This document shows positions 41,551 through 59,516 of a stretch of DNA of 64,000 nt, piece after piece (positions within the stretch are counted from its first letter, which is position 1; every line of letters starts with the position of its first letter). The DNA is from an uncultured Gammaproteobacteria bacterium. Its GTDB lineage: Bacteria; Patescibacteriota; Patescibacteriia; UBA9934; CAZDDW01. The position numbers and the translations under genes are program-made. The notes beneath the pieces are model-generated. The model had not been told where the DNA came from and ran no database searches. It saw only the letters and a program-made list of their open reading frames with translations. The stretch lies in contig OZ246408.1 in the NCBI GenBank assembly GCA_965231015.1, forward strand, positions 620,115-684,114, given 5' to 3'.

Positions 41551-41578
41551 AAATTAAGAGACGGGGCGTAACCCCGTC
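41551..41578 (-). terminator. Intrinsic terminator at end of the surface-protein operon
   Basis: Minus strand: GACGGGG-UUACG-CCCCGUC followed by UCUUAAUUU, immediately before the DUF362 start. Confidence 0.6.
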
Positions 41579-41588
41579 CTCCCTTTTT

Positions 41589-42095
41589 TTATTGTTCATC
41601 GGCTTGAATTGCCTGGACCACGCTTGAATCTGGCCGTAAATTTTCTATAAACAGAATGTGATCTCGGTTGATTTCCATGGTCCCTTCCGGGCCATGCATT
41701 TCCGTTCCCAAACGAACCAAACTGGTTTGACTACCCTGTCCTGACGCGGCTTGTTCTCCGGACGCTTCTTGAACCTGCAAGTAATACACTTCGGACATAT
41801 TAATAAATTGATCCTTGCGATTTTCCTCAAGCCGGCCAAAATAAACCTGACCATTAGTCAGAAAAACAGCTTTGTAATCACTGCTCATGCCCTTAGTATC
41901 CGTGTTGGCTGGCGCCTGGCTTTCCAGATCTAAAACCGTATCAATCACAGAATCACTAGAACGAGTAAACCAATAAACAAGGCCTGCCAGAACAGCTACT
42001 GCTAAAACTATAGCCACAACAATAACCAGCTTCGATCCCTTTTCTTGCTCTCCGGGTCGATTATATTGTGGTCGATTTTCTTTTTTAAAAAACAT
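41589..42095 (-). CDS. Membrane-anchored hypothetical protein (168 aa)
   Basis: TM helix LVIVVAIVLAVAVLAGLVYWF and a soluble domain with no recognised family. The start is 3 nt after the giant gene's stop. Confidence 0.5.
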   Translation of the reverse strand: MFFKKENRPQYNRPGEQEKGSKLVIVVAIVLAVAVLAGLVYWFTRSSDSVIDTVLDLESQAPANTDTKGMSSDYKAVFLTNGQVYFGRLEENRKDQFINMSEVYYLQVQEASGEQAASGQGSQTSLVRLGTEMHGPEGTMEINRDHILFIENLRPDSSVVQAIQADEQ

Positions 42096-42097
42096 AA

Positions 42098-45000
42098 TTA
42101 TTCTTCAATTAATGTATCAGACTCCTCAACCGGAGCTTCTTCAGGCTGGGCTGGCTCCTCTTCCACCACAGTTTCTTCCTGATCGGGATCAACATGTTGA
42201 GTCCCTACATCCTCTTCGACCTCTTCTTCGGTCATAGGCTCGTCATCTTCTACTTCTTCAACTACCTCCTCCTCTTCTTCTTCTCCTTCGGCTATCTCCT
42301 CATCAATTACTGGTTCTTCTTCAACCACCTCTTCCTCTTCTTCTACTGGTTCCTCTTCCTCCGGCTCTTCATCTATCTGTTCGTCCGGATCAACCATGCC
42401 TTCAACCGGATCATTTATATGACACTGGCCGTCCCAATAATAGTTTGTCAGCTGTTTGCACTCGTCCAGGGTATCACAGGCGTTCAAATTATCAACCCCA
42501 CACTCACCTTGATCAATAACCAGCTCAATTTCTTCAGTGGTTCCGTCTGAAATGAACAGCTTGGCATTATTTGAACCAAAAGCGTGCCAACTGAATTCAA
42601 CGCTCTCGCCATACATCTTATCTATCTCAATGTTAAATCCGGTTAAAGTTACATCTTTGATAATGTAGTCAATGTCCTCATGTAAATAGTTCATGAGAGT
42701 AGCAGTAACAATTGGTTGATATTGATACTCTTCCTCAAATTCAACCTGAACATTGGTCTCGTATTTCAGGATGCGAGCCAGACCAACCGTATCACCGTTA
42801 AAGGTAGTGTGTTTCTTTACCACCAAATTATCAACCTCGCCACTCATAACGAGAGTCGAACCACTTCCCTGTTCAACAGACTCAGTTTCTTGAATATCAT
42901 TCATACTATTTTGTATTGTCTCAATCACTCCCTGTTGATCCTGAATTGATTTCATCACAAGCGGAATAAAACTCTTATAATCCACCATCTTATACCCGTC
43001 CGAACGAGTGGTTACGGCAATTGGATAAATATCTTCAACCTGTTGAGCAATTACCCCGTGGTAGAATGTTTCATCATCGTCTGTAAAAGCTGATCTGTAT
43101 CGGAAATCCACAATCTCAACGGCCATTAAATCTTCAATGGAAAGTTCAGTAGCGGTGATATCCCGCTTCAAGCGCTCGTCTGACGGAGCTGTGGTATCAA
43201 TTGTATTTTGTCCAATGTAAAGAGTAGCTGAGCCTGTACCGTGGGTTTCGTCATCAATTAAATTATCCCCACTATCAACACCGATTGTCACACCAGAAGC
43301 TACCACTAATCCGCCGTTAGTTGGATCAGTGTCGCCAATACCAACGATTCCAGAACTAGATAAACGCATTACTTCTGAACCACTGGTTGAGAAGCCTAAA
43401 GTATCGGCCGAAATTCGGTACATTCCAGTGTTAGAGTCGTCGTTGAACCGGTATGATGGAGAACCAGCTGTTCCGTTTGCGTTAGCAAACGAACTGGCTC
43501 TAACTTGTCCAACAACCTGGAATTTAGTTGAAGGTGAGTCCGTACCAATTCCAACCCTCTCATTAGTAGTATCAATGTTCAAAATTGAAGTACCACCATC
43601 TGCATCTAAGAATTGGAAGCCGTTGGTTGAGTCAGTGCTATTTTGGAAAGTTAATAGATCATTAGTGGTATCGAAGGTTACTGCAGTTTCATCACCATCA
43701 GCCCCAATGTGTAAGGTGGCTGGGCCAAGATATAAATCCTGCCAACGAACTGTGCTTGAACCAAGGTCAAAGGTGTCATCTGCTGATGGAAGAAGGTCGT
43801 CACTTAATATAAAGGTTGTGGTATCGTGTCTTAAATATTCTGTTGTGGCATTGTTGTAATACAAGTACTCATCCAGGGTGATGTTACCATCAGCCTCAAT
43901 ATCATCGGCAACTAAAAGGTCGCTAGTCCCATCGATGTTGCTAGCCACACCACCTCCAACATCAAGCAGAGCCGCTGGACTGTCATCCCCAATTCCCACA
44001 TCTTCTAAAAAGTAGCTTTCCCCGGCTGAAACATAGAGGGCAAATCCACTACTTTGTGTATTTAGTTCCAATAAGTTTGCCGTGGCCGAAGAATTGGTGT
44101 CGCGGAAGCTGGCAAAAGCAGAAGCGGTCGCCGCTGTGCCTCGACGAGCATCAAATACGGAACCGGTACCATTATTGGTCAGGCTTATCATGTTAATGTT
44201 TGAATCTTGGTCAGCACTTAAAACACCCCCTGCGCCATTTTGATCAATCTCAATTGCGTTTCCGGTACCGTCATTTTGAATTTTCAAGACATCCTGATCT
44301 GAACCATCGTCTTCAGTAAATGATACTAGTGGTCCGTCAGCATCAACAGCCGCACGGCGTGAATACACATTCAAACCAATTCCCGGTGCATCGTTTCGAA
44401 CAAACAAAGCCCCGGATGAACTGGTGGCAAACCCAACATCACCAATTTGATCTATCAATAGCGCATTACCTGTACCATCATTGGTCAGATACATTACGTT
44501 TTGATCTGATGCACCATCCTCATAGAGCTCAAACAAGGCATCATCCGTGGTAGCTGCGTCTTCATTTCTGTATAAATAAAGTGCCCCGGCTCCGCCACCG
44601 GCCGTAACTCTTAAACTGGCGGCGTTATTGGTGCTAGCATCACCGATATGAGTAATCGACACAGCATAATTACTGGTGTCAGTTCCACGTACAGCCAACA
44701 TCTCAGAAGGACTATTGGTACCAATTCCCAAATATTTGTTTGTGTCGTCCCAGAAAAGGTTGGCATTATCTTCATCCAAATCCCCGGAAGCATCAGCAAA
44801 CATAACTGAACCGGTAGTAAAGCTAGAATCAAGAGAGCCGGACAAAGTTCCGTAAATTGTGCCATCGACTTCAAGGTCGTCGGCTACCAATAAGTCATCT
44901 GTTCCGTCGATGAAGTTAACAACTCCGCCACCGACATCTAACATGGCCGAAGGTGATGGATCTCCAATCCCAATATACCCCGTATTATCTGTGATCCTTA

Positions 45001-48000
45001 ACCTTTCCGTAGGTACCCCGACCCCATTATCTGTTGCAAAGCTGTGACGGGTGGTGGCATAGAAAGAGAAGTAACCATCTCCAAAGTCAGCGACACCATT
45101 ACTATCAGCTAAAATTTTAGTATTGTGAGCAGCATTTCCGATTTCAATATAATTTCCAACATTATCATACTGAATCGAACTAACGCTTGATCCTCCATCA
45201 TTAAAGTAGATCCAATCTGTTACTCGGATATCACCAGAGACATCAAGTTCAACCCCTGGTGTATTCGTCCCAATACCTAACCGATTATTGCCATCATCCC
45301 AGAATAAGTTGGTGTTATCTTGACTTAATAACCCGGAAGAACCGATAAACGGCATGGAGCCGGTAGTCATATCGGCAATGGATAACGTCTCACCGGTGTT
45401 TAATAACAGATCATCGCCCGGGTTGGTTGGTGATAAATCAGTTCCGGTCTTGGACCAATACGATGACCCTGCACCCAATGAGGCGGTATAAGTTCCAAGA
45501 GCGTTCAAAGCATGAACAATAGAGGTCGAGGTCTCACCGCCGGCACCAATTGTTGAACCAATAGATCCATCATCGGCAAAAATTTCCCCGGCATCATTTA
45601 ATAAATCGTCTCCAAGAGCAGAACCGGTCTGAGTAAAGTAAAGGCTTGGCTCTTGATTATCCCGGAAATGGATCAATCCTCCGCCACCAGATGAATCAGC
45701 GTTCAAAGTGATTAAAGCTCCGCCATTATTTACAGAATCAACTTCAAAATCAACTTCTGAATTACCATTTCCTGCCGTGGCGTGCACATAAAAACGAGCA
45801 TCACCGTTAGTTGACGGATTGTTGCTGATATTAAATTGAGCTATGGAGTCACCATTGGTATTCGTGTTTTGCAGATACACTTGGAAATCAGTGTCTCCGT
45901 TAGTGGAGTTAGAGGTTACCCCGCGATAAATACCTTGCACCTCATTTCCATCACCATTATCCTGAACTAAAAATTGAGCATACCGATTACCCGACATTAA
46001 CATGTCGTCTCCTGTGTGCATAGCCACTACTTGTGTATCAATTCCAATATCATCCGGGTCAATAAAGTTGAACAAACCAACCAGTCCGGTATTCCCTCCC
46101 AAACTTCCTTCGTTGGAATATGGATCAATGATTAAACCACCGGTTAAGGTTGTAAAGTCCACCCCGTCCCCTAGAACCGAATATCCTCCACCGGAATAAC
46201 TATTGTTCATGTAGGCGAGTCCGGATCCAAAATCAATGGCCGGCGGATTGTTGGTGACATCGTTTTGATTAATGGTCAAGGCGGCGTTATTGCTTGTATC
46301 CGGAACTGTAATTTCTACTGCCCCACTGTCCGCAGTGATTGATCGGCCGGCTCCGGCGCCGCCAGTGTCATATGACGCATCCAGAGTTCCGCCGCCGGCA
46401 CCGCCAAAATTCACCACGTAATTTCCCAAACTGTTCAGAGCATGCACAATAGACGTTGAGGTTTCACCACCTCCTCCTATGACTGAACCAAGCGTACCGG
46501 TTGAGCTAAAAATTTCCCCAGCACTATTCAACAAATCGTCTCCCAATGCCGAGTTATACTGCGTAAAATTCAGAGACTCGTTGTCATCCTCAAACTCAAT
46601 CCATGACCTTTGGTTTGGATCCAAGTCAGTGGTGGCCGATATAGTAATGTAGGCGTTTCCAACATATCCCACCCCTTCTTTGTCAGCCTCAATCCAGGTT
46701 TGAGCATCTCCACCGTCGTCGCTATTACGTGAACGTACATGGCTTACAGCATCACTAGAGCCACCGCCATCTGCAATTTCAGAATAAAATTGTGCCTCCA
46801 CATCGTTATCTGAACCAGCATTTTCTAAAGCGGCAATGGTGGCACTTCTGGTTGGCGTACCCGTAAAGAAGTTTTGATTAGAAGCATAAATGGCTGAACC
46901 TTGGGTTTCTCGACCGCTTGTGACCGCGCCGGTAAAATTATAGATTCCGGCTATCCCCATGTCACCGGCTGCAAAATAAGATTCATTGCCATAGGGATCA
47001 TAAATCAAACCACCGGTTGTGGTTCCCAAATCTGGTCCATCACTCATCATGAAAAAATTTGTGGTCAAATCAGCCTCAAGCACCTGCGGTCCGGTTCCGG
47101 AAAACTCGATCGAAGCTCCGCTGTCGGTGTTATTGGTGAGCTGTAAAACTGAAGATTCAACCGTGGTATCATTTTGAACGATTTCCAATCCAACATTACC
47201 AGAACCATCCGGTACAATGATTTGTACTTCATCAGAATCTGCCGTAATAATTCTTCCAGCCCCAGACCCACCGAAGTCATAAGCCATATCCAAAGTTCCA
47301 CCGGCTCCGGCACCAATGCCGGCGGCATATGTTCCGACCGCATTAATAGCGTGAATTAGCGAAAGTGAAGACTCGCTGAAACTTGATCCGATCGTACCGC
47401 TCGAAGAATAAATCTCACCAGGAGCGTTTAGTAAGTCTCCGCCCAGGGCAACACTATCTTGCGTCAAATACAAATTATTTTCTCTTTCATCAACAAAATA
47501 TACATCACCGTCCGGCGACAACAACTGAATTGTTGAAGTACCTCCGGCTGAAGCACTTAAAGTGATAGTTGAATCGTCGGCTATACTGTTATTTGCCTGA
47601 AGTAAAATAGTGGATTCACCGGACGTTCCGGTTGTTTTGCTTGCTCCGACTAAAAATTCTGCATCTCCGGTGTTCGTGGCACTAACCACGTTAAAAGTCA
47701 TGTCGCTGTCACCGGTTGCGGCTGATGTGGTGCGAGCATCAAAATCAATGGACACATCACCGGTTACATCGGTCTCGTTTAAAATAATTCTTGAGTAACG
47801 CGTGATAGTACCGCCGAAATCGTCATCACTATTATTCAAAACGATTTGTTGAGTAGGTACCCCGGCTGTAGCGGCACCAATAAAATTCATAATTCCGGAA
47901 AATCCCTCTGAACCACCAAGCGATGGGTCATTGCCGTACGGATCAATGAATAATCCTGAAGTTAGATCACTAAACTGGGCTCCGTTACCGACAATGCTCC

Positions 48001-51000: not shown

Positions 51001-52798
51001 CACTATAATCCGCGGCATAAGTCAATCCTTCGAAATTTGCGGCATCACTCGTGATGTAAATCAAATCATCTCGATAATATAAGTCGTGCTGGTTAGCCCC
51101 CTCTAAAGTCAGTCCGGCAAAATCTGTTCCACTAACACCAAACCGTACTTCTCTATTATCCCCAGAATCTATTATTTTAAAATTATCTCCGTTAAATTCC
51201 GTGTAGGGTTCACCAACAAATTCACGAACCACGAATGAAAATCCTTGATGGTTAAGATATGTATTTTGATCCAAATCACCACCAAGATCGATTTCACCGG
51301 ATGTTAAAGTAAGGCCATTTCCAGCTGATGTAATTGCCCCATCAACCGTGCCATAAATTGTTCCGTCAACCTCCAAGTCACCGGCCACCAAAACGTCGTC
51401 AACTCCATCAATATAATCGGCCACTCCACCACCAACATCTAACAATGAAGACGTGGTAGAAGTTGAAATTCCAACCTGATCTTCAGAGCCATCTGTGAAC
51501 AATAAATACTCATCCAAACCACTTTCAATTCTAAAGTCAGTTTGAGTTGAACCTTCATTAATAGTAATTTCTTCATCAGCATACTGAACATCAATCATGT
51601 GACGACCACCGGTCCTAAGTTGCCACCGGTCCGGTGTGAAGTACATGAAAGTGTGTGAATCTTCATTGTGACGGATATAGCCTTCCACCCCAACTTCCCC
51701 ATCTACGTCCAAGGTGTAATCCGGGGCATTATTACCAATTCCTAATCTATCATTGGTATCATCCCAGAAAAAATTAGCGTTGTCTTCAATTAGATCTCCT
51801 GAAGCATTAGCAAAAGTTACTGAACCCTGTGTGTATGAGCCAAGATTTCCCAAAGCAAAACTTTCCCAACCGATGTTAGTACTAGCTCCTGAGGTCTTGA
51901 GATACATGGTTCCGTTGGTGGTGTCGACGGTCAGGTCTCCAATGTCAGCTGTAATAGATCCTTCTGGAGTGGTATCAGCTCGGAAAATTTGCAGATCACC
52001 GGCTGAGTTCTCAATGGTGACAATAGCTGTGTCATTAGCCGAGTTTGAATCCACGTGCAAGGCAGTGGCTGGTGTATCATTACCAATTCCTAGCAAACCT
52101 TCAGAATCCAAACTGAAAATTTCCACGTCATTGTGGTTCAAAACGGAAAGTTGATAATTGTCGGCATCAGTCACCGTGTTAAGAACCTTGAGTTCACGCT
52201 CATCCGCCGCCGCCCCGGTCCAACCTGAACCTTGAAGTACCAACATTGGTGAGTTGTACCCTTGAGTGACCGCAGTAGCAGTACCAAGAGCTTCACCTAC
52301 GAGCTCGTCTGAACCAGAGTCAGCAAACGGCCCCACCCTTCCGGCGTTCATGGAAAACGGATGAGCCGCTAGCAGTACTCGAGGCGAGGCTTCGTTGTCC
52401 GCTTCAATTTTTACCCCCAGGTACAAAGTTTCTTGAAAATCTAAATAGTCAGGGAAGCTTACACAGTTTCCCAGCTGAACATCAAAGTAACCTTGAGTGT
52501 CTGGAGTGACTTCAGCACAAGCTCCTACACCCTGGTCATAGGTTTCACTCCAGAGCAATGGTCCGGTTTCACTAGCCACGTCAGTTGGAGCTCCGTTGGT
52601 TGCATGGTTGTAGATTGAAAACTGAATGGTGGTTGAAGCTACTACTGGGTTTCCCAAAATGTCTCGGAGGCGAGACTGGTAATTGACCACGTCCGGGGCG
52701 GCCTGAGCCTGAGACCCAGAAAGACCAAAATTAACGCATGTCAACAACAATGCGACTAAAACACCGGTTCTTTTTAGCCAAATTCTCCCGTCAAGCAT
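42098..52798 (-). CDS. Giant secreted repeat protein (3566 aa) with tail-fibre-like repeats and a C-terminal intramolecular chaperone (Peptidase S74) domain
   Basis: Signal peptide MLDGRIWLKRTGVLVALLLTCVNFGLSGSQAQA. It has at least 6 ~230-aa repeats (LLNAPGEIFSSTGTIGS...HALNAVGTYAAGIGAGAGGTLDQAYDFGGAGAGR) and LGIGTNTP...LDV beta-helix-like motifs. An S74 domain (SDERLKRDITATELSIEDL...YHGVIAQQVEDIYPIAV...VDYKSFIPL) lies near 42850-43190, followed by a ~330-aa tail ending in a poly-Glu stretch. Confidence 0.8.
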   Translation of the reverse strand: MLDGRIWLKRTGVLVALLLTCVNFGLSGSQAQAAPDVVNYQSRLRDILGNPVVASTTIQFSIYNHATNGAPTDVASETGPLLWSETYDQGVGACAEVTPDTQGYFDVQLGNCVSFPDYLDFQETLYLGVKIEADNEASPRVLLAAHPFSMNAGRVGPFADSGSDELVGEALGTATAVTQGYNSPMLVLQGSGWTGAAADERELKVLNTVTDADNYQLSVLNHNDVEIFSLDSEGLLGIGNDTPATALHVDSNSANDTAIVTIENSAGDLQIFRADTTPEGSITADIGDLTVDTTNGTMYLKTSGASTNIGWESFALGNLGSYTQGSVTFANASGDLIEDNANFFWDDTNDRLGIGNNAPDYTLDVDGEVGVEGYIRHNEDSHTFMYFTPDRWQLRTGGRHMIDVQYADEEITINEGSTQTDFRIESGLDEYLLFTDGSEDQVGISTSTTSSLLDVGGGVADYIDGVDDVLVAGDLEVDGTIYGTVDGAITSAGNGLTLTSGEIDLGGDLDQNTYLNHQGFSFVVREFVGEPYTEFNGDNFKIIDSGDNREVRFGVSGTDFAGLTLEGANQHDLYYRDDLIYITSDAANFEGLTYAADYSADYTNRSLVDKEYVDNASINIFNSDGSLSEDRTFDLNGNYFIIENTGMMVEIGEDEWIQSMNTGIYFSELNQDSGGVFYTAENSATGEIMNTWMRTNDLSFERSDDNNLTSTSLDVSPENISITSDVVGFEGAVYAADYSSNYTNRSLVDKEYVDSLGGGGGTLDQSYDTGGAGVGRSIIADSGPVYISDAGQAETATFSDSLLKLNSGLGTTTFTDFPATLVVNSEPAVGEFAFGVTIMGNERTLGLTSSYELLTEAVTLSGNTITFSTNLRSLNITESASTTFLVSGSAAHDGMYQLVSLDPSGTVATVQTVIGGNPGFPAESVSADVLEGSVTFGNPMAERALEVTHGKDFTDAALKIRNYSQGSSLLATHNNTAATDPAVQITNNASGASGLHFSGSSVYSTTFEDITSNYYVMGDSNDMGTTSTGGLLADPYGVSPAFSAVGYGVVGYYNYVGAATAGNNLAGSVNYSGNANHLTGSPTRWAVVGAFETDEDGNVEVRSLAQIEPGGGTDDAEAVLESSHEDNGGDSVVHIEAHKRGAGNSGDAYIELEAAVDDTGTMDSWISFRDENDQLTFTQYGSSLGDDLLNAPGEVFSSTGTIGSSIGVGETSDSLVHALNAVGSYAAGIGAGGGGTLDQAYDFGGAGNGRTITADSGTIQFITPNNSNHSVLTITQNDATNDPSALTISNAGDGAAIEFTGVGGHSLLTDLTSNWIAIADDVTVADINAGFMIDPYGNNPVYTGLNQGAVGFGNYIGADEASQDRSLSFMQAMNDFPNDSPTRSVYLYLWETDAEGGQDVRAQLVAEVAETGDNDAVVEIKSINEDLGHHAYTSLGSYIDNVAANGNAYTAIQARVLNGTGDGFISFTDTRDDLAFTQDSAFFGDDLLNAAGEIFEATGTIGSVSGETSDSLVHALNAVGTYAAGLGAGAGGTLDQAYDFGGAGAGRLITADSGAVQITVPDNSNTAALSITQNDTTNYPGGIDFGSGYAAITNDLSSGWSIVGNGAQFSDLTSGLFIDPYGNDPSLGGSEGFSGIMNFIGAATAGVPTQQIVLNNSDDDFGGTITRYSRIILNETDVTGDVSIDFDARTTSAATGDSDMTFNVVSATNTGDAEFLVGASKTTGTSGESTILLQANNSIADDSTITLSASAGGTSTIQLLSPDGDVYFVDERENNLYLTQDSVALGGDLLNAPGEIYSSSGTIGSSFSESSLSLIHAINAVGTYAAGIGAGAGGTLDMAYDFGGSGAGRIITADSDEVQIIVPDGSGNVGLEIVQNDTTVESSVLQLTNNTDSGASIEFSGTGPQVLEADLTTNFFMMSDGPDLGTTTGGLIYDPYGNESYFAAGDMGIAGIYNFTGAVTSGRETQGSAIYASNQNFFTGTPTRSATIAALENAGSDNDVEAQFYSEIADGGGSSDAVSHVRSRNSDDGGDAQTWIEADKEGVGYVGNAYITISATTDLDPNQRSWIEFEDDNESLNFTQYNSALGDDLLNSAGEIFSSTGTLGSVIGGGGETSTSIVHALNSLGNYVVNFGGAGGGTLDASYDTGGAGAGRSITADSGAVEITVPDTSNNAALTINQNDVTNNPPAIDFGSGLAYMNNSYSGGGYSVLGDGVDFTTLTGGLIIDPYSNEGSLGGNTGLVGLFNFIDPDDIGIDTQVVAMHTGDDMLMSGNRYAQFLVQDNGDGNEVQGIYRGVTSNSTNGDTDFQVYLQNTNTNGDSIAQFNISNNPSTNGDARFYVHATAGNGNSEVDFEVDSVNNGGALITLNADSSGGGGLIHFRDNQEPSLYFTQTGSALGDDLLNDAGEIFADDGSIGSTIGAGGETSTSIVHALNALGTYTASLGAGSSYWSKTGTDLSPTNPGDDLLLNTGETLSIADMTTGSMPFIGSSGLLSQDNTNLFWDDGNNRLGIGTNTPGVELDVSGDIRVTDWIYFNDGGSSVSSIQYDNVGNYIEIGNAAHNTKILADSNGVADFGDGYFSFYATTRHSFATDNGVGVPTERLRITDNTGYIGIGDPSPSAMLDVGGGVVNFIDGTDDLLVADDLEVDGTIYGTLSGSLDSSFTTGSVMFADASGDLDEDNANLFWDDTNKYLGIGTNSPSEMLAVRGTDTSNYAVSITHIGDASTNNAASLRVTAGGGAGALYLYRNEDAATTDDALFELYEDGASDQNVMYLTNDGTGNALLIDQIGDVGFATSSSGALFVRNDAPGIGLNVYSRRAAVDADGPLVSFTEDDGSDQDVLKIQNDGTGNAIEIDQNGAGGVLSADQDSNINMISLTNNGTGSVFDARRGTAATASAFASFRDTNSSATANLLELNTQSSGFALYVSAGESYFLEDVGIGDDSPAALLDVGGGVASNIDGTSDLLVADDIEADGNITLDEYLYYNNATTEYLRHDTTTFILSDDLLPSADDTFDLGSSTVRWQDLYLGPATLHIGADGDETAVTFDTTNDLLTFQNSTDSTNGFQFLDADGGTSILNIDTTNERVGIGTDSPSTKFQVVGQVRASSFANANGTAGSPSYRFNDDSNTGMYRISADTLGFSTSGSEVMRLSSSGIVGIGDTDPTNGGLVVASGVTIGVDSGDNLIDDETHGTGSATLYIGQNTIDTTAPSDERLKRDITATELSIEDLMAVEIVDFRYRSAFTDDDETFYHGVIAQQVEDIYPIAVTTRSDGYKMVDYKSFIPLVMKSIQDQQGVIETIQNSMNDIQETESVEQGSGSTLVMSGEVDNLVVKKHTTFNGDTVGLARILKYETNVQVEFEEEYQYQPIVTATLMNYLHEDIDYIIKDVTLTGFNIEIDKMYGESVEFSWHAFGSNNAKLFISDGTTEEIELVIDQGECGVDNLNACDTLDECKQLTNYYWDGQCHINDPVEGMVDPDEQIDEEPEEEEPVEEEEEVVEEEPVIDEEIAEGEEEEEEVVEEVEDDEPMTEEEVEEDVGTQHVDPDQEETVVEEEPAQPEEAPVEESDTLIEE

Positions 52799-52840
52799 GG
52801 GGTCTTTTTATTTCTTATATTTTAGCAAATTATAAAGTTA

Positions 52841-52864
52841 ATATCCACAGGAAACTGTGGATAT
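52841..52864. repeat. Perfect 10-bp-arm inverted repeat ATATCCACAG-GAAA-CTGTGGATAT upstream of the giant gene
   Basis: It lies between the 52896 stop and the 52798 start. The arms resemble a TTATCCACA-like box, suggesting an operator or an attenuator hairpin. Confidence 0.35.
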
Positions 52865-52895
52865 TTTGGGTACTTTTTTTTACTCTTAAATGCGC

Positions 52896-53897
52896 TTAAT
52901 TAACTAAACGCCACCCCTCATCAGTATAAACCACATAAAACACTTGACTCATTCCATCATCCGTCACAATAATTTCCACCACATTGTCAAACTCAATTGG
53001 GTATAACTCATTTTGCCAAGTACTCAAGACTTTAACGCTAGAAATTCCTAATTCTTGATCCACCAAATCATCTAACCCAAAAATACTTTCTTTGCTTTCA
53101 TGATCTTTGACATGTTGTGTCTCATCAACCTCGGCTTTTAGATCATCATATACATACTGATAATTGTCTTTATACAATCCTCGGGCTTCATTATTAACCA
53201 CGTTAATCAGAAGGTTGTACATCTCATAATTAAAATATATTGTCTGGTTGGCTTCGTCCTGAATTTCATACCGCAAGGATCGGATCAGTTTTGGATGTGT
53301 AAGCTTGATTCCGTTGGTTTTATCAATCGATGGAAAAGTATAGCCACCGCTATTTGACGTGTGAACCGAAACTTTGCCCACGGTCAAATCCACTCCTTCC
53401 ACACCGGACTCGGTTAACGGATCAATCACTGTGCCGCTCACGGTTGTTATGACCGGCTCAGTAGTATCAAACCAGTCCTCAAAAACCGCACTGTCTTTAT
53501 TGATGTAAACCCCAACCACTAAAGCAATCGCTACCGCGATTACAGAGAGCAAGATGGCTCCTTTGGTATAGCGCATGTTCTTTTTATCTGTTTCAGATTT
53601 ATCAGCTTTTTTAGCTAAACGAATTGAGTTCCAACCCAAGACACAAATCAAGGCAAAAAGCACTAAAATAAGCGCATTAAAGAAGGGCGGAACAACACTT
53701 TGCACCTGTTCAATAACCCCAGGCTCATCCTGCAACACAAAAAAGGCCACGTCTTGTTCCCTACCATCTGACGTTTGCAACACGGCAGTGTGTACCCCTG
53801 GTTCTAAATTATTCAAAATTTCCGTACTCCAATTACCATACTCGTCAGTTTTGATATCGAGCTCAAGCGGCTCGTTCAAGGTTCCTTCTGTGGCCAT
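52896..53897 (-). CDS. Bitopic membrane protein with Cna-B/CarboxypepD_reg-like extracellular domain (333 aa)
   Basis: Two TM helices, VPPFFNALILVLFALICVLGW and AILLSVIAVAIALVVGVYI, then TVSGTVIDPLTESGVEGVDLTVGKVSVHTSNSGGYTFPSI. The ATG is 1 nt after the upstream gene's TAA. Confidence 0.5.
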   Translation of the reverse strand: MATEGTLNEPLELDIKTDEYGNWSTEILNNLEPGVHTAVLQTSDGREQDVAFFVLQDEPGVIEQVQSVVPPFFNALILVLFALICVLGWNSIRLAKKADKSETDKKNMRYTKGAILLSVIAVAIALVVGVYINKDSAVFEDWFDTTEPVITTVSGTVIDPLTESGVEGVDLTVGKVSVHTSNSGGYTFPSIDKTNGIKLTHPKLIRSLRYEIQDEANQTIYFNYEMYNLLINVVNNEARGLYKDNYQYVYDDLKAEVDETQHVKDHESKESIFGLDDLVDQELGISSVKVLSTWQNELYPIEFDNVVEIIVTDDGMSQVFYVVYTDEGWRLVN

Positions 53898-53898
53898 A

Positions 53899-56502
53899 TT
53901 AATAAATGATAAGTCTTAGCGACTGTAGTGGATCAGCCTTGCCAAAAAACTGAATCGACTCTTCAGTTCTGCGAATTTCAATAAACTGTAGGCTGGATTC
54001 CGCTTCCACGTACTGGGTGACCGGTGCCACACTTTCGTAAACGGTTTCCGTGACCGTTTCGGTAACTGTCTCGGTTATCGGCACTTCCCGCATCACCTCC
54101 TCGGTTTCAGTGATAACTTCTGGAGTACACACTAATCCCTCACCAGCTCCATAAACTGGAACCATTAACACTTCTGGGCCAATAGCCACTCGGCCACGAG
54201 CGGTAGTTATTGGTCGGAAATGGTAAACCGTACCCATGGCTAATCCGTCAATGACCACGGCATGATAAGTGCTGTCGTCATTGGTTTCTGGGGTTGAAAG
54301 CGGATAACCGTAATTTGGTTCAGCACCAAGCGACGTGTGCGACACGTCATCGTACAGCACCCGACCGGTACCAGCCATATTACTCAACCAGCTGACCAAT
54401 ACGGAATCACTGTCAATTTGAGTAGCTTCCACGGTGGTGATATTAATTGATGGCACCTGGGTCTCAATTCCACCTCCCCCACCTTCACAAACCGCACGCG
54501 TACCCTCGGCTTCATACTCACAACTCGAGTCACAACCGTCTCCATCATTTGTATTCCCATCATCACAATCTTCATTTAGCTCAACAAGATAGTTTCCACA
54601 AATCTCTTCAGAAAGACAGTTTGAACTACAACCGTCCCCACTTACCGTGTTTCCATCATCACATACCTCGTTTCCTTCGATTACTCCATTACCACACAAC
54701 TGTCCTACACCACCACCGACTGTCAATGAATAAACGTCCCGTTCCATTAAATTACCACCGGCATCAGCGGCATATATTATGACTGGAACCGCTTCTCCGG
54801 CAGTAAAATCAATTTCCGGGTCAATTGAAAATTGATAAATGTTTGGTGCGGAAACATTGGTGACCACTGTGGTATCACCAACATAATTACCTCCGTTAAA
54901 ATCAAGACTGCTCGCATATGTGATTCGGGTTCCGCTTACGGTCACTTGTCCGGCTCCCCCACCGTTTGTGTAATAGGTTCCGTTGACATAAATCACCACC
55001 TCATCAAGATCAACCCCAACCCCATCATCATTCAGATTAAACTCGACCGTACCATCAGCCACAATTCCGGCGTCATCAGCCGGGTTTCGCGTGTCCACGT
55101 ACGGAGCATCTGAGTCAGTGGTGGTAAAAGTATAGTTGTCAGCCACCATTACGTTGCCGGCTACATCTTCACAATTGTAAACACTCACGGAAACGGTTTC
55201 GTTTTGGGCAAAATCACTGGCCGGGTTAATAGTGATCTGGTAGCCATAGTCAACCGCGGTCACGGTCAAATCACCATGACCCTCCTGGTACGTGGTCAAA
55301 GCAAAACTTGGGCTGGAAACATCAATATCACAAGTATTTGAAACCACCCCGGTTCCAGAAATGTTTCCCGGATAATTTTTCAAATCTTGAACCGTGATAA
55401 CAAGATTGGTATCAACCGCGTTGCCTGAACTTCCCCGAACAGGTGACTCAGATGTCACTTCCGGGGGAACATCATCTTCTTCAGTGGTAAAGGTCCAGGT
55501 TTTAGTATCCATGGTGTTTGGACCATTGGCGTCACCCAGCTGATCTTGGCTAGAACTAGCTAAATCTTGGTATCCGCTAACTTCTACCGTATACGAGGTA
55601 TCGTATTCCCAATTACGATTATCTCCGGCAATACCGCTTGGCGAAGCCGGATCAACTGTTACATCACATTCATTGGTGCCAAAAATTCCGGAACAAGCAT
55701 AACTGGCGTCCCCGGTATGATCTGCCGCGCCTCCCCCGTCATCAAAAGTAATACTGCCCGGTGGAACAGACATATCCACACCGGTACCGGCTCCGGAGTC
55801 ATCCCCTTCACCATTCAAACTATCCCACAACTCAAAGTAATAATCCTCATCAATGTCTACATCAACCGAACCTGTAGACGGGCTCTCATCCTGTGCATAC
55901 GGTTTGATCGTGTCTGCCCAAACGTGAAAATCAAAATCTTCTTCCGAATCCATGTATTCCAGGCCATCACGAGCTATATTAGTGTCGGTCGGTACTCCGT
56001 TCGTGTAATCAATATCAAGAGCAGTCGCATTGTAACCGTAAGCCGCGGCAGTTGGCTCTAACATGGTCCAGGTAACTCGACCGTATTGGCGAGTACCACT
56101 ATAATATGTTCCTGGATTATTGTACGCACTAAATTCCAAATGACCAGCCACGTTATCAATCGATTCACCAACCCAGTTTTGGTAAGCCGTCAGAGTAGTC
56201 AAACCCGAAGCACTAACTTTGTCCGGATCGTAGTCAAGTAAAAAATCAGCTCCGTTGGAGGGGTTGGCCGCATCAATAGCAACGTCGATCCGGGTATTGA
56301 AAGACTGTCCAACGTAATAATAATTGAGATCAGCATCAAGTCCGGTTCCTCCATCTCCGGTGTTATCCGAGCCTGTCTGAGTCAAAGTGTACATCTGAAA
56401 CCAGTTGGTACCGCTTGGGTCAGCTGCGGAAACCGGGGCAGCAAAAAGAAAAACAAAAATCAAGAAATAAAGAAATAAAGAAATCTTAAAATGTTCTCGC
56501 AT
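53899..56502 (-). CDS. Secreted 867-aa protein with Myxococcus-type cysteine-rich repeats (CxxxxxxxxCDDGNxxxGDGC)
   Basis: Signal peptide MREHFKISLFLYFLIFVFLFAAPVSAA. Two repeats, CGNGVIEGNEVCDDGNTVSGDGCSSNC and CGNYLVELNEDCDDGNTNDGDGCDSSC, match the TIGR02232-like motif. A long Gly/Thr/Asp-rich beta region and a C-terminal TETVTETVTE stretch follow. Confidence 0.65.
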   Translation of the reverse strand: MREHFKISLFLYFLIFVFLFAAPVSAADPSGTNWFQMYTLTQTGSDNTGDGGTGLDADLNYYYVGQSFNTRIDVAIDAANPSNGADFLLDYDPDKVSASGLTTLTAYQNWVGESIDNVAGHLEFSAYNNPGTYYSGTRQYGRVTWTMLEPTAAAYGYNATALDIDYTNGVPTDTNIARDGLEYMDSEEDFDFHVWADTIKPYAQDESPSTGSVDVDIDEDYYFELWDSLNGEGDDSGAGTGVDMSVPPGSITFDDGGGAADHTGDASYACSGIFGTNECDVTVDPASPSGIAGDNRNWEYDTSYTVEVSGYQDLASSSQDQLGDANGPNTMDTKTWTFTTEEDDVPPEVTSESPVRGSSGNAVDTNLVITVQDLKNYPGNISGTGVVSNTCDIDVSSPSFALTTYQEGHGDLTVTAVDYGYQITINPASDFAQNETVSVSVYNCEDVAGNVMVADNYTFTTTDSDAPYVDTRNPADDAGIVADGTVEFNLNDDGVGVDLDEVVIYVNGTYYTNGGGAGQVTVSGTRITYASSLDFNGGNYVGDTTVVTNVSAPNIYQFSIDPEIDFTAGEAVPVIIYAADAGGNLMERDVYSLTVGGGVGQLCGNGVIEGNEVCDDGNTVSGDGCSSNCLSEEICGNYLVELNEDCDDGNTNDGDGCDSSCEYEAEGTRAVCEGGGGGIETQVPSINITTVEATQIDSDSVLVSWLSNMAGTGRVLYDDVSHTSLGAEPNYGYPLSTPETNDDSTYHAVVIDGLAMGTVYHFRPITTARGRVAIGPEVLMVPVYGAGEGLVCTPEVITETEEVMREVPITETVTETVTETVYESVAPVTQYVEAESSLQFIEIRRTEESIQFFGKADPLQSLRLIIY

Positions 56503-56503
56503 A

Positions 56504-57301
56504 TTAATTGTCCCCTTCCAAATTAAAATTCTTTAAAACTGTAGTCAAGTCTAACGCGTTTACTTTGGTGTCTTGGTTTAAATTAGACCTATACCCGTTC
56601 CCGGTAGCATCACTTTCAGCAAAATCAGTTAAGCACTGCGTAATATCAAGGGCGTTTATTTTATCATCTCCTAAAGTTGCCGGAGCGTCTCCGGCCAAAT
56701 TAATATCCCCAGCAATAAGTTCGATTGCACCTTTGGGAGCAGAATTATCAGTTTGAGAAAAATTTAGTGTTGTGGTTCCGTCTATCAACGGTACATCATC
56801 TAAGACTAAAGTTAAATGTTGATCCGTTTTTATCCCAATATCATACGTCCCGGCAGCCACTGCCAATTCAATCGGAATCGAATACGTACCATCAACTTCA
56901 GATGTAGCCAAGACCGATTGTGTGTACAAAATCACATCATCGGAATTATCCGAAGTTCTGACCGTAAGAATAAAAGTCACATCATCGTTAGTTTCGGCAA
57001 CACCATAACGTAATTCCGGTACCGCCCATTGCACGACGGCAAAAACTGTTCCCACAGCATCATCCCACCAGGTTCCATGGTCATAGATGTAATTGGCACT
57101 GGTCGAGGTTCCAACCCCCGGGTGACCGACCTCAGCCTTGAACTGATAGTTAGTTGAACTACCGTCAAACTCAACCGGACCACCACGCTCCTGATTCATA
57201 TCGTAGTTTGCACTATCCCCGGCCAAAGCTAAAGCCGGTAGCATCATAAGTGCCCCAGTTATCAAAAGAATTCTCCGATTGATTATGGCTCGGATCTTCA
57301 T
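56504..57301 (-). CDS. Secreted protein with dockerin-like Ca-binding repeats (265 aa)
   Basis: Signal peptide MKIRAIINRRILLITGALMMLPALALA. The C-terminus has two ~22-aa segments, GDDKINALDITQCL and NLNQDTKVNALDLTTVL, resembling the type-I dockerin DxNxDxxVNxxD loops. Confidence 0.5.
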   Translation of the reverse strand: MKIRAIINRRILLITGALMMLPALALAGDSANYDMNQERGGPVEFDGSSTNYQFKAEVGHPGVGTSTSANYIYDHGTWWDDAVGTVFAVVQWAVPELRYGVAETNDDVTFILTVRTSDNSDDVILYTQSVLATSEVDGTYSIPIELAVAAGTYDIGIKTDQHLTLVLDDVPLIDGTTTLNFSQTDNSAPKGAIELIAGDINLAGDAPATLGDDKINALDITQCLTDFAESDATGNGYRSNLNQDTKVNALDLTTVLKNFNLEGDN

Positions 57302-57375
57302 GTTTTTATCTGCCCCTTTATTTTACCCTAAAAATACAAAATGTGCTTTGAGTTATGTGGACAGATGAATAAGTC

Positions 57376-57404
57376 TTGATTTTACTCTGATTTTAGAGTA
57401 GTAT
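57376..57404 (+). promoter_or_regulatory. Possible promoter TTGATT-17-TAGTAT for tRNA-Gln
   Basis: TTGATT at 57376-57381, a 17-nt spacer, and TAGTAT at 57399-57404. The tRNA 5' end lies 19 nt downstream. Confidence 0.3.
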
Positions 57405-57422
57405 TGTTGTACCCGAAGACAA

Positions 57423-57496
57423 TCCGAGGTCGTCTAAGGGCAGGACACCAGGTTTTGGTCCTGGGAATCGGGGTTCGAATCCCTGCCTCGGAACCA
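57423..57496 (+). tRNA. tRNA-Gln (anticodon UUG), CCA encoded
   Basis: Manual fold: acceptor TCCGAGG/CCTCGGA; D-arm GTCT-AAGGGCA-GGAC; anticodon arm CCAGG-TTTTGGT-CCTGG with TTG at positions 34-36; T-arm CGGGG-TTCGAAT-CCCTG; discriminator A plus CCA at 57494-57496. Confidence 0.8.
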
Positions 57497-59148: not shown

Positions 59149-59150
59149 GT

Positions 59151-59516
59151 TTATTTGATAATTTTCTTGATTCTCTTTACTAAATCCTCTCGATCAAAAG
59201 GCTTAACAATATAATCAGAAACCCCCTGCTTTTTCATGACTTTTATTTTTTCCTCGTCTGCCTCTAAGACGGTTAGAAAAGCGATTCGTGCCGTGGAATT
59301 TCTTTCTTGAATCCTGGAAAGAAGTTCCCAGCCTGACATTTCCGGCATCATAATATCCAACAAAAACAGGTTGTAGGTATTATTTTTCATCTTCTTTAAA
59401 GCCTCGCTTCCACTGGTCGCTGAATCCACGACATAACCCTCTTGATCTAAAATTAAACGCACAACGTCCAATGTGTCCTGGTCATCATCAACGTGTAGAA
59501 TGGTTTTTCCTGGCAT
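59151..59516 (-). CDS. Stand-alone response-regulator receiver (CheY-like)
   Basis: 121 aa: ILHVDDDQDTLD...LFLLDIMMPEMSGWELL...YIVKPF. The phospho-acceptor Asp and conserved Lys are present, with no output domain. Confidence 0.85.
   Translation of the reverse strand: MPGKTILHVDDDQDTLDVVRLILDQEGYVVDSATSGSEALKKMKNNTYNLFLLDIMMPEMSGWELLSRIQERNSTARIAFLTVLEADEEKIKVMKKQGVSDYIVKPFDREDLVKRIKKIIK

What the first reader, a model, noticed from the sequence alone, without database searches (positions are those of the whole stretch)
41551..57301. 15.7-kb co-directional surface/adhesion operon: dockerin-like protein, Myxococcus-Cys-repeat protein, CarbopepD-like TM protein, giant fibre protein, membrane anchor, ending in a terminator
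Five minus-strand genes have 1-3-nt junctions (56504/56502, 53899/53897, 42098/42095), plus one 97-bp gap holding a perfect inverted repeat (52841-52864). The unit ends with a clean hairpin terminator (41551-41578). It combines a dockerin-type Ca-binding module, TIGR02232-like CDDGN...GDGC repeats, a Cna-B-like domain and the S74-containing giant. This composition suggests a dedicated cell-surface attachment apparatus rather than isolated adhesins.
Basis: partly seen in the sequence, partly recalled or inferred. Interest (0 to 1): 0.6.

Follow-up and report, generated by a model that had tools for sequence, protein, structure and literature searches.

The report
Conserved CPR cohesin–dockerin surface stalk with giant fibre
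This stretch of a Patescibacteria (CPR) chromosome encodes a surface assembly kept across the whole group: a membrane-anchored stalk whose cohesin-like tip sits next to a dockerin protein, followed by a giant phage-tail-fibre-like protein. It is a concrete candidate for how these tiny symbiotic bacteria attach to their hosts.

Summary
The five minus-strand genes, their 1-2-nt junctions, the perfect inverted repeat and the final hairpin are all at the stated coordinates. The host is a Patescibacteria chromosome, not a phage.

**Genes 1-3** form a trio found in all 48 related genome loci I fetched.
- g1 is a signal peptide, a PamT-like N-module, and an X-module plus dockerin. The fold matches type II XDoc, E 1.8e-7.
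- g3 is a two-helix membrane protein.
- g2 ends and g3 begins inside one bacterial Ig domain. The joined profile hits single Bap/SiiE domains (E 1.5e-11), and some relatives have the two genes fused.

**g4** is a 3566-aa tail-fibre-like protein with a significant S74 module and an intact SDERLK motif. Only its N-terminal ~125 aa are conserved.

**g5** is an orphan single-pass membrane protein that is usually linked to the cluster.

Relatives carry terminators and promoter-like sequence between g3 and the giant gene. The cluster is therefore probably two transcription units rather than one operon. Physical binding between the parts and a role in host attachment are inferred, not shown. I rate it a new variant of known kinds.

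The parts
57423..57496 (+). tRNA-Gln (UUG) on the opposite strand. It marks the 5' boundary of the cluster. The promoter of g1 must lie in 57302-57422.
   Evidence: ARAGORN; sequence.
56504..57301 (-). g1, a 265-aa secreted adaptor. Signal peptide aa 1-27, PamT-like N-module aa 28-88, X-module-like beta-sandwich aa 89-190, dockerin aa 195-265.
   Evidence: AF2 pLDDT 82.6. The top 8 Foldseek hits are all XDoc chains of type II cohesin-dockerin complexes, E 1.8e-7 to 7e-6. 60 homologs, all Patescibacteria where a source names them.
57038..57220 (-). g1 N-module with three SxN[YF] motifs. It is homologous to the N-terminus of the PamT-like 255-267-aa proteins encoded next to 'short' g1 genes in other lineages.
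   Evidence: NF058579 CPR_pilus_PamT, E 2.5e-7, 30 bits against a cutoff of 240. hhalign probability 96%, E 4.4e-9. Low pLDDT of 40-56 in the monomer model.
56507..56719 (-). g1 dockerin. The second loop, NLNQDTKVNALD, is canonical. The first loop, GDIN...GDDKINALD, carries an insertion of about 9 residues. Each loop is followed by a helix.
   Evidence: Family-invariant D/N positions. Dockerin_1 in 23 of 60 members, window member E 0.019. Helices 217-225 and 249-257. Fold match.
53899..56502 (-). g2, an 867-aa secreted stalk of beta-sandwich domains. Orthologs are 40-58% identical over the full length across Patescibacteria classes.
   Evidence: AF2 pLDDT 84.6. Foldseek gives strings of Ig/FN3 domains. 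123 homologs. 48 genome loci.
55903..56415 (-). g2 N-terminal domain (aa ~30-200), the most likely site of the cohesin fold.
54463..54711 (-). g2 Cys-rich acidic repeats (TIGR02232/DUF4215, two copies). Present only in a subset of orthologs.
   Evidence: 70 bits against a cutoff of 20.8. pLDDT below 50. Absent from the L003-L006 orthologs.
54148..54450 (-). g2 FN3-like domain (Pur_ac_phosph_N-like).
   Evidence: Pfam 26.6 bits against 30 here. Precomputed hits in many orthologs. Strands 692-780.
53902..53997 (-). g2 C-terminal half of a split bacterial Ig (BIg) domain, ending ...LRLIIY*.
   Evidence: Conserved break point in 13 loci, and a continuous domain in the fused proteins P0090 and P0097. 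The composite profile hits single BIg domains across the junction.
52896..53897 (-). g3, a 333-aa two-helix membrane anchor. The acidic N-tail (aa 1-62) is the other half of the split BIg domain. TM helices lie at aa ~65-96 and ~108-139 with a K/R-rich loop between them. The C-terminal ectodomain has a CarboxypepD_reg-like part and an NTF2/MecA_N-like part.
   Evidence: Hydropathy and charge: N-tail 14 D/E against 2 K/R, loop 8 K/R. PBP3 7bn9 N-domain, E 1.6e-4. CarboxypepD_reg in 7 of 15 members, sub-threshold. Fusions with g2.
52840..52865 (-). Perfect 11-bp inverted repeat with a 4-nt loop in the 97-nt g3-g4 spacer. It is a palindrome of the DnaA-box-like motif ATATCCACAG and overlaps promoter-like hexamers.
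   Evidence: dG -14.5, z -4.95. Promoter-like TGGATA-17-TAAAAT. Orthologous spacers carry terminators and the same motif.
42098..52798 (-). g4, a 3566-aa secreted tail-fibre-like giant. Signal peptide aa 1-34, conserved N-domain 35-160, five ~300-aa repeats 752-2445, fibre-like region 2445-3200, S74 module from 3206, then ~300 further residues ending in a poly-Glu tail.
   Evidence: Translation. Self-comparison. Pfam and PHROGs. PDB 6f45 long tail fibre, E 0.002.
52319..52696 (-). g4 N-terminal domain, the only part conserved between giants of different lineages (45-64% identity). Proposed docking end.
   Evidence: 13 loci; 3714 representatives at E <= 1e-3 and 57 at 1e-30; in nearly all of the 150 listed the match starts within the first ~85 residues, in proteins of up to 5516 aa. 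No Pfam or PDB relative.
43013..43183 (-). g4 Peptidase_S74 intramolecular-chaperone module, with S3206-D-E-R-L-K3211 at its start.
   Evidence: 35.6 bits against 22. Motif position. phrog_6121 and phrog_33119 tail-fibre families.
41589..42095 (-). g5, a 168-aa single-pass membrane protein (TM aa ~17-47) with a conserved ~95-aa outer domain. It belongs to an orphan Patescibacteria family.
   Evidence: 244 homologs, no Pfam or PDB relative. It sits next to giants or next to g1 in 8 of 9 contexts examined.
41559..41579 (-). G+C-rich hairpin after g5, a probable leaky terminator or RNA-stabilising element. The ATG of the DUF362 gene follows 8 nt later.
   Evidence: dG -17.3, z -3.5.

Best explanation
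The region encodes a modular cell-surface assembly that is conserved across Patescibacteria. It has a base, probably an adaptor, and a variable fibre.

**Base.** g2 is exported by Sec and forms a rod of Ig/FN3-type domains with a cohesin-fold domain, most likely at its far (N-terminal) end. g2 has no membrane anchor of its own. Its last ~30 residues are the first strands of a bacterial Ig domain. The remaining strands come from the acidic N-terminal tail of g3, a two-helix membrane protein translated from a start codon 1 nt after the g2 stop. Strand complementation in trans would tie the stalk to the membrane without covalent linkage.

**Adaptor.** g1 is exported and carries an X-module plus a Ca-binding dockerin. 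This probably plugs into the g2 cohesin, as the XDoc of a cellulosomal scaffoldin plugs into type II cohesins of anchoring proteins. The PamT-like N-module of g1 offers a second interface.

**Fibre.** g4 is exported and probably trimerises with the help of its C-terminal S74 intramolecular chaperone, which cuts itself off at Ser3206. It would then project as a fibre of the order of 100 nm. Its conserved N-terminal domain would be the cell-proximal docking end, and its variable repeats and tip would be the target-binding end. g5 is a small membrane partner that travels with the fibre or with g1.

**Shown:** gene order, coupling, conservation, fusions, folds, the split domain and the S74 motif. 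**Inferred:** every physical contact, trimerisation and cleavage, the two-unit transcription, and a role in attachment to host cells.
For: **Conserved neighbourhood.**
- A g1-like dockerin gene lies next to g2 in 48 of 48 genome loci. These span Uhr-, Magasanik-, Nomura-, Buchanan-, Vogel-, Peri-/Peregrini-, Gracili- and Saccharibacteria.
- g3 is separate in about 30 loci and fused to g2 in about 5.

**Fusions.**
- g2+g3 are fused in P0090 and P0097.
- The X-module plus dockerin of g1 is fused to the C-terminus of proteins that start like g2 (P0173-P0178).

**Folds.**
- g1 matches XDoc, E 1.8e-7, TM 0.61-0.68.
- A variant cluster has a Pfam-significant Cohesin protein, then a dockerin protein, then a 1717-aa protein, then a g5-like gene.

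**Split domain.**
- The break point is the same in 13 loci, in all three relative frames and with gaps of 1-10 nt. An ATG always follows.
- The joined profile matches single BIg domains of Bap (E 1.5e-11), SiiE and an S-layer glycoprotein across the junction.
- The g3 N-tail is acidic and the inter-helix loop is basic, which fits an N-out topology.

**Fibre.**
- S74 is significant and SDERLK is intact.
- Giants directly follow g3 in 13 loci and share only the N-domain.
- That domain is N-terminal in nearly all listed proteins that carry it, and their lengths vary widely.

**Cellular, not viral.** The neighbours are housekeeping genes. No relatives were found in IMG/VR.
Against: - No binding was tested, and no complex could be modelled with these tools.
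- Cohesin and dockerin are both sub-threshold by Pfam in the window proteins themselves.
- Nothing shows what the g4 N-domain binds. Many lineages have the trio without a giant next to it, so the trio does not depend on g4.
- g2 is unusually conserved for an adhesin, which fits a structural envelope role as well.
- About 300 residues follow the S74 module, including a weak H-lectin match. They would be discarded on cleavage, which is odd for a tip.
- One genome keeps its g5-like gene more than 18 kb from the cluster.
Confidence: 0.6

Rival explanations
1. The g1-g2-g3 trio is a housekeeping envelope scaffold, for example an S-layer-type or wall-spanning lattice that self-assembles through cohesin-dockerin contacts. 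It would not be an attachment device. The giant fibre would then be a neighbour only because both are surface genes.
For: - g2 is 40-58% identical across whole classes and is present in every locus.
- Variants carry the cohesin-like N-half and the XDoc in one chain (P0173-P0178). Such proteins could polymerise head to tail.
- The split BIg profile also matches a Haloferax S-layer glycoprotein domain.
- Many lineages have the trio without a giant.
Against: - Giants and g5 recur beside the trio in at least four different gene orders. That is hard to explain without a functional link.
- In 'short g1' lineages, PamT-like pilin-type genes sit next to g1.
- There is a single stalk gene per locus and no lattice-forming evidence.
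Confidence: 0.2
2. The cluster is a divergent Pam-type (CPR donor-strand-exchange) pilus locus. g1 would be a tip or adaptor pilin, and g2/g3 the terminator and anchor.
For: - The g1 N-module hits NCBIfam PamT (E 2.5e-7). It is homologous to PamT-like proteins next to short g1 genes.
- The Pam pilus preprint reports a tail-fibre-like protein co-localising with pam operons, and a membrane-anchored FnIII protein (PamR) as anchor.
Against: - The PamT score is 30 bits against a cutoff of 240.
- The window has no relative of the L006 PamT-like pilin-type or chaperone-type genes by tblastn.
- The g1 core is an X-module plus dockerin, not a truncated Ig pilin domain.
- The L006 neighbours gave no Pam family hits other than a weak PamT match.
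Confidence: 0.1
3. A cellulosome-like enzyme scaffold for polysaccharide degradation.
For: Cohesin and dockerin folds. A weak H-lectin match in g4.
Against: - No glycoside hydrolase, CBM or other catalytic domain appears in any of the five proteins.
- There is a single dockerin protein without an enzyme.
- The neighbours are DNA repair and signalling genes.
Confidence: 0.03
4. g4 and its neighbours are a prophage or tailocin remnant.
For: S74 and tail-fibre PHROG hits at the g4 C-terminus.
Against: - No other phage genes are in the window.
- The five genes sit between two-component, tRNA and uvr genes.
- The arrangement is conserved in many genomes at different chromosomal sites.
- No relatives of g2 or of the g4 N-domain were found in IMG/VR.
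Confidence: 0.02

Closest known systems
Type II cohesin / X-module-dockerin anchoring of the Clostridium thermocellum cellulosome (CipA XDoc bound to SdbA/OlpB/Orf2p cohesins; PDB 2b59, 4fl4, 5g5d)
   Same: g1 has the same two-module XDoc architecture and fold. g2 has a cohesin fold. The cohesin-bearing partner is the one attached to the cell, as in anchoring scaffoldins.
   Different: - No enzymes or CBMs are present.
- The anchor is a two-helix membrane protein reached through a split Ig domain, not SLH modules or sortase.
- The first Ca loop of the dockerin carries an insertion.
- Both modules are below Pfam thresholds in this genome.
- The organism is a cell-wall-poor episymbiont lineage.
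- Binding is untested.
Phage tail fibres and endosialidase tailspikes with a C-terminal intramolecular chaperone (Peptidase_S74; e.g. phage S16/T4-type long tail fibre tip, PDB 6f45)
   Same: The S74 module is significant, with the Ser...Lys motif (SDERLK) at its start. Short fibre motifs repeat. The polarity is a conserved N-terminal end with a variable distal part.
   Different: - It is chromosomal, Sec-secreted and 3566 aa long, with five ~300-aa repeats.
- About 300 residues follow the S74 module, including a poly-Glu tail.
- The N-domain has no phage relative.
Pam pili of CPR bacteria (Troman et al., bioRxiv 10.64898/2026.03.03.709456)
   Same: It is CPR-specific and Sec-dependent, and is membrane-anchored without an outer-membrane usher. 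The g1 N-module is distantly related to PamT. That preprint reports a tail-fibre-like protein co-localising with pam operons.
   Different: No PamA/B/E pilins or PamC/D chaperones were detected here. The connection is proposed to be cohesin-dockerin plus a split Ig domain, not serial donor-strand exchange.
Giant BIg-repeat adhesins (Staphylococcus Bap, Salmonella SiiE, Marinomonas MpIBP)
   Same: The split domain is a BIg domain of the Bap/SiiE type. The stalk is built from tandem beta-sandwich domains.
   Different: Here one BIg domain is divided between two polypeptides at a conserved point and serves as the membrane tether. The stalk is short and highly conserved, while the giant partner is a different, fibre-type protein.
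Donor-strand complementation in chaperone-usher pili
   Same: An incomplete Ig-like fold is completed by strands from another polypeptide.
   Different: Here roughly half the domain comes from each chain. There is a single stoichiometric pair rather than a polymer, and no chaperone is evident. The complementation itself is inferred from sequence only.

Membership tests
Dockerin (Pfam PF00404, type I/II dockerin) | Sequence match above the curated threshold. | tested here: not met
   Window g1 scores 15.6 bits, E 0.019, against a gathering score of 22.9. At family level, 23 of 60 homologs match at E <= 0.01, with a best value of 4.4e-7.
Dockerin (Pfam PF00404, type I/II dockerin) | Two Ca-binding loop-helix (F-hand) repeats. 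| tested here: met
   Loop 2 (N240, N242, D244, N248, D251) is canonical and nearly invariant. Loop 1 (D199, N201 ... D213, N216, D219) carries an insertion. Helices lie at 217-225 and 249-257.
X-module-dockerin (type II XDoc) | An Ig-like X module packed directly before the dockerin, with a fold match to solved XDoc structures. | tested here: met
   The top 8 Foldseek hits are all XDoc chains: E 1.8e-7 to 7e-6, probability 1.00, about 182 aligned columns, target TM 0.61-0.68.
Cohesin (Pfam PF00963) | Sequence match above the curated threshold. | tested here: not met
   On g2 aa 27-205, Cohesin is the top family but scores E 0.16, 12.6 bits against 24.1. Two of 20 orthologs match, with a best value of 0.001. 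A profile search against PDB sequences found no cohesin.
Cohesin (Pfam PF00963) | Nine-stranded jelly-roll beta-sandwich fold. | tested here: met
Cohesin-dockerin system | Ca-dependent high-affinity binding between the two modules. | not testable with these tools
   There is no complex prediction or experiment. Support is indirect: adjacency in 48 of 48 loci and natural fusions.
Cellulosome | Dockerin-bearing carbohydrate-active enzymes and a CBM on the scaffoldin. | tested here: not met
   No catalytic or CBM domains appear in g1-g5.
Peptidase_S74 intramolecular chaperone (PF13884) | Sequence match above the curated threshold. | tested here: met
   35.6 bits against 22, E 1.1e-8, aa 3206-3262, covering the full profile 1-57/58. 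phrog_6121, E 5e-10.
Peptidase_S74 intramolecular chaperone (PF13884) | Catalytic Ser with Lys five residues later at the start of the module (Ser911/Lys916 in endosialidase NF, from my own knowledge of that family). | tested here: met
   S3206-D-E-R-L-K3211.
Peptidase_S74 intramolecular chaperone (PF13884) | Autocleavage and release from a trimeric fibre; the module lies at the extreme C-terminus. | tested here: inconclusive
   Cleavage and trimer state cannot be tested here. The module is followed by about 300 further residues, unlike typical members.
TIGR02232 / DUF4215 Cys-rich acidic repeat | Sequence match above the curated threshold. | tested here: met
   TIGR02232 scores 70 bits against 20.8, with two stretches. 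DUF4215 scores 42.2 bits against 27.
Pam pilus (NCBIfam NF058579 PamT and partners) | PamT equivalog score. | tested here: not met
   30.3 bits against a cutoff of 240. Only aa 12-89 match.
Pam pilus (NCBIfam NF058579 PamT and partners) | PamA/B/E pilins and PapD-like membrane-anchored chaperones PamC/D in the locus. | tested here: not met
   No Pam family hits for g2-g5 or for five neighbouring proteins. No tblastn match in the window to the L006 PamT-like pilin-type or chaperone-type genes. Not every ORF of the window was scanned.
CarboxypepD_reg (PF13620) / Cna-B-like domain in g3 | Sequence match above the curated threshold. | tested here: not met
   20.8 bits against 32.3. Seven of 15 orthologs match at E <= 0.1, with a best value of 2.5e-4. 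This fits a small beta-sandwich but is not a formal member.
Bacterial Ig-like (BIg, Bap/SiiE type) domain, split between g2 and g3 | A single-domain match spanning both halves. | tested here: met
   The composite profile hits 7dm0 (E 1.5e-11), 6m3a (2.8e-5), 2yn3 (1.3e-6) and 7ptp (5e-4). The alignments cover profile positions 10-81, that is both sides of the junction.

The most novel reading that the evidence does not exclude
Patescibacteria share a previously undescribed, phylum-wide surface organelle. A stalk protein is tethered to the membrane by trans-complementation of a split Ig domain, which would replace sortase or SLH-type anchoring. Its cohesin tip accepts a dockerin adaptor. Lineage-specific filaments then mount on this base: giant self-cleaving tail-fibre proteins in some lineages and Pam-like pilins in others. 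The result would be a plug-and-socket host-attachment system. Its Saccharibacteria counterpart may be the essential dockerin/Ig protein found by Tn-seq in Southlakia epibionticum.
Probability: 0.35. Interest if true: 0.8.

Novelty: new variant of a known kind. Interest (0 to 1): 0.66.

Why it matters
Patescibacteria may make up a large share of bacterial diversity, and most are thought to live attached to other cells. Apart from type IV pili and the recently reported Pam pili, the molecules that hold them to their hosts are largely unknown.

A gene set present in essentially every lineage sampled gives defined targets for structural and genetic work. It includes a recognisable plug-and-socket pair, a membrane tether and a hypervariable fibre. 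It would also explain why giant tail-fibre-like genes keep turning up next to surface-structure genes in these genomes.

A conserved Ig domain split across two coupled genes is also an unusual way to anchor a surface protein. It could be exploited as a natural split-domain tag.

Tried and rejected
- **Phage origin.** PHROGs hit only the g4 C-terminus. IMG/VR scans with g2 and the g4 N-domain found nothing. Rejected.
- **Exact-sequence look-up of g1.** It failed because the database gene model starts 12 codons later. The ATG at 57301 is preferred because it gives a basic n-region.
- **Sequence-profile search of the g2 N-domain against PDB.** No cohesin was found.
- **g4 N-domain, g5 and g3 C-domain.** The g4 N-domain and g5 have no Pfam or PDB relatives. 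The weak FliL hit for g5 (19 bits against 179) was dismissed. The g3 C-domain gave only a modest NTF2/MecA_N-like match.
- **Recoding across the g2/g3 junction.** Programmed frameshift or readthrough was considered and rejected. Orthologs use all three relative frames and gaps of 1-10 nt, and always have an ATG.
- **The window's inverted repeat as a simple terminator.** It lacks a good U-tract and is a palindrome of a motif that is intergenic elsewhere in the window. Its role is left open.
- **Homology of S. epibionticum SEML1_0315 to g1/g2.** It could not be checked because no sequence was available.

Full report
**What is there**

The window is a bacterial chromosome segment transcribed almost entirely from the minus strand. 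Around the finding lie uvrA, uvrB, uvrC, rsmH, tgt, clpB-like and two-component genes. Homologs of the focal proteins, where a source names them, come from Patescibacteria: Uhrbacteria, Magasanikbacteria and others. The exact proteins occur on short contigs assembled from run SRR7048221. The protein cluster is also recorded on a contig of about 1.0 Mb.

Both hairpins fold better than all 200 shuffles, with z = -4.95 and -3.5. A tRNA-Gln on the opposite strand closes the 5' side.

**Formal domain tests**

- TIGR02232/DUF4215 in g2 passes curated thresholds.
- Peptidase_S74 in g4 passes curated thresholds.
- Dockerin_1 in g1 does not pass: 15.6 bits against 22.9.
- CarboxypepD_reg in g3 does not pass.

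An unexpected lead was a weak match of the g1 N-terminus to NCBIfam 'CPR-type pilus protein PamT'. This led to a 2026 preprint on Pam pili of CPR bacteria. That preprint notes that a tail-fibre-like protein co-localises with pam operons.

**Comparative genomics**

I anchored on g2 and fetched 48 loci from GTDB species representatives.

- Every locus has a g1-like gene beside g2.
- g3 follows as a separate gene in about 30 loci and is fused to g2 in about 5. Most of the remaining loci are truncated contigs or a Peregrini-/Gracilibacteria variant.
- g2 orthologs are 40-58% identical over their whole length.

Two kinds of natural fusion tie the three genes together.
- g2+g3 occur in one chain: P0090 at 1180 aa and P0097 at 1188 aa.
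- The beta-sandwich plus dockerin of g1 occurs at the C-terminus of proteins that begin like g2 (P0173-P0178).

A giant ORF follows g3 directly in 13 of these loci. A further locus fetched through g1 (L058) shows the same arrangement. These giants share only the first ~155 residues with g4, at 44-58% identity. Giants also lie upstream or divergent in several other loci. Other lineages have the trio with no giant next to it.

g5-like genes were seen in nine contexts.
- After a giant: the window, L037 and L057.
- Before a giant: L059.
- After a 1717-aa protein, in a cluster that starts with a Pfam-significant Cohesin protein and then a dockerin protein.
- Directly before g1: L049 and L054.
- Divergent from g1: L050.
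- Elsewhere in the genome: one case.

Supporting calls for these contexts are 44, 55, 56, 58 and 96-98.

**g1**

With 60 homologs, AlphaFold2 gives pLDDT 82.6. The model shows a signal-peptide helix, low-confidence hairpins at aa 43-75, a beta-sandwich at aa 86-180 and two short helices.

The eight best Foldseek hits in the PDB are all the X-module-dockerin chain of type II cohesin-dockerin complexes: E 1.8e-7 to 7e-6, target TM 0.61-0.68. The family alignment shows nearly invariant Asp/Asn at the Ca-loop positions. The second loop is canonical and the first carries an insertion. Dockerin_1 is detected in 23 of 60 members.

The N-module (aa 12-87) aligns to the N-terminus of PamT-like 255-267-aa proteins with 96% probability. 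Those proteins are encoded next to the shorter (~225 aa) g1 genes of other lineages. The long g1 form therefore looks like a fusion that kept only the N-module. The window has no relative of those PamT-like or neighbouring genes.

**g2**

With 88 homologs the model has pLDDT 84.6. It is a chain of beta-sandwich domains, interrupted by the poorly predicted Cys-rich repeats, followed by an FN3-like domain, a disordered linker and two terminal strands.

**The g2/g3 split**

In 13 loci g2 ends at the same point of a conserved pattern (...G.A.P..KLKLYIY*). g3 begins with M...SD..GNW...G.H.V.V.D..G. The fused proteins run straight through this point. Gap lengths of 1-10 nt and all three relative frames occur, which excludes recoding.

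A profile of the joined halves matches single bacterial Ig domains across the junction:
- Bap, 7dm0, E 1.5e-11
- SiiE, 2yn3, E 1.3e-6
- Haloferax S-layer glycoprotein, 7ptp, E 5e-4

g3 has two hydrophobic helices, an N-tail with 14 acidic and 2 basic residues, and a loop with 8 Lys/Arg. Both the N-tail and the C-terminal domain should therefore face outward. This is the same topology the fused proteins must have. The C-terminal ectodomain has a sub-threshold CarboxypepD_reg-like part and an NTF2-like part. The NTF2-like part resembles the membrane-proximal N-domain of PBP3 (E 1.6e-4).

**g4**

The protein has these parts:
- a signal peptide;
- an N-domain that is N-terminal in nearly all listed proteins that carry it, in proteins of up to 5516 aa (3714 representatives at E <= 1e-3, 57 at 1e-30);
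- five ~300-aa repeats;
- fibre-type short repeats;
- the S74 module starting at S3206-DERL-K;
- about 300 further residues, with a weak H-lectin match and a poly-Glu tail.

From what is known of S74 modules, the protein should be a trimer that cleaves itself after folding. This was not testable here.

**Transcription**

In the orthologous g3-giant spacers, at least 9 of 12 loci carry a textbook hairpin plus T-run, followed by TATAAT-like sequence. The window's spacer instead has a palindrome of ATATCCACAG that overlaps promoter-like hexamers. The trio and g4-g5 are thus probably separate units, perhaps with different expression levels.

The terminal hairpin leaves no room for a promoter before the DUF362 gene. 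Read-through is therefore likely.

**Synthesis**

The best reading is a modular surface assembly with four parts:
1. a conserved membrane-tethered stalk (g2 plus g3, joined through a split Ig domain);
2. a dockerin adaptor (g1) for the stalk's cohesin;
3. a lineage-variable giant fibre (g4) docked by its conserved N-domain;
4. a small membrane partner (g5).

The main rival is that the trio is a structural envelope scaffold. Pam-pilus, cellulosome and prophage readings each fail tested defining features.

The searchable literature holds no description of this trio. A Tn-seq study of Southlakia epibionticum lists an essential Ig-plus-dockerin surface protein downstream of a PAS kinase, a response regulator and a tRNA. 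That layout resembles the window, but I could not verify homology.

Noticed in passing
window 52841-52864; also 8766-8775(-), 12872-12881(-), 32141-32150(-), 32197-32206(+), 34127-34136(-), 12261-12270(-), 24557-24566(-); loci L009, L013, L014, L017, L021, L034, L058 (g3-giant spacers): A DnaA-box-like motif, TTATC(C/A)ACAG. Seven of its 8 best matches in the window are intergenic, and the g3-g4 inverted repeat is a palindrome of it. The motif recurs in the orthologous spacers of relatives. At two sites it directly follows an extended -10 box (TGCTATAAT-ATCCACA). It may be a promoter-proximal element or a regulator site.
   Followed up: partly
window 62458-62823 and 62993-63520 (- strand): Two adjacent ORFs match different parts of the spermidine/putrescine-binding protein PotD/PotF (profile positions 263-346 and 28-162). 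This is probably a disrupted gene or a frameshift.
   Followed up: no
window 57580-62454 (- strand) and 57423-57496 (+): A 977-aa PAS histidine kinase, a 121-aa response regulator and a 522-aa PAS histidine kinase lie directly upstream of the cluster, separated from it by a tRNA-Gln. Southlakia epibionticum has PAS kinase, response regulator and tRNA-Glu upstream of its essential dockerin/Ig protein SEML1_0315 (PMC10633639 supplement). This could mean conserved regulation. Homology was not verified.
   Followed up: partly
window 42101-43012 (g4 aa 3263-3566): About 300 residues follow the S74 self-cleaving module. They include a weak H-type lectin match (aa 3350-3406, E 0.012) and a ~110-aa poly-Glu tail. 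If cleavage occurs, this piece is released, and its purpose is unexplained. Part of it is conserved in the giants of L026, L034 and L037.
   Followed up: partly
L006/L020, L026, L027, L028, L031, L032, L034: Lineages with a short g1 carry extra genes next to it: a PamT-like 255-267-aa gene, and in several of them also a 188-223-aa paralog and a 275-330-aa secreted protein. This looks like a small Pam-like pilin set attached to the cohesin-dockerin trio.
   Followed up: partly
window 26366-27670 (- strand); L006 5170-6540: A FecR/LipL45-like 434-aa protein in the window has a 41%-identical ortholog. In L006 that ortholog sits about 1 kb upstream of the first gene of the PamT-like cluster.
   Followed up: no
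L044, L046, L047, L048, L052 (Peri-/Peregrini-/Gracilibacteria): This is a variant architecture. Proteins start like g2 (cohesin-like N-half). In L046 and L052 the same chain, and in L047 a separate downstream ORF, ends in TSP3 repeats plus a g1-like X-module-dockerin. Cohesin and dockerin in one chain could allow head-to-tail self-assembly.
   Followed up: no
window 40624-41550 and 40103-40621 (- strand): A DUF362 protein and a cytidylyltransferase-like protein follow g5 with no room for a promoter after the hairpin. They may be co-transcribed with g4-g5 by read-through.
   Followed up: no
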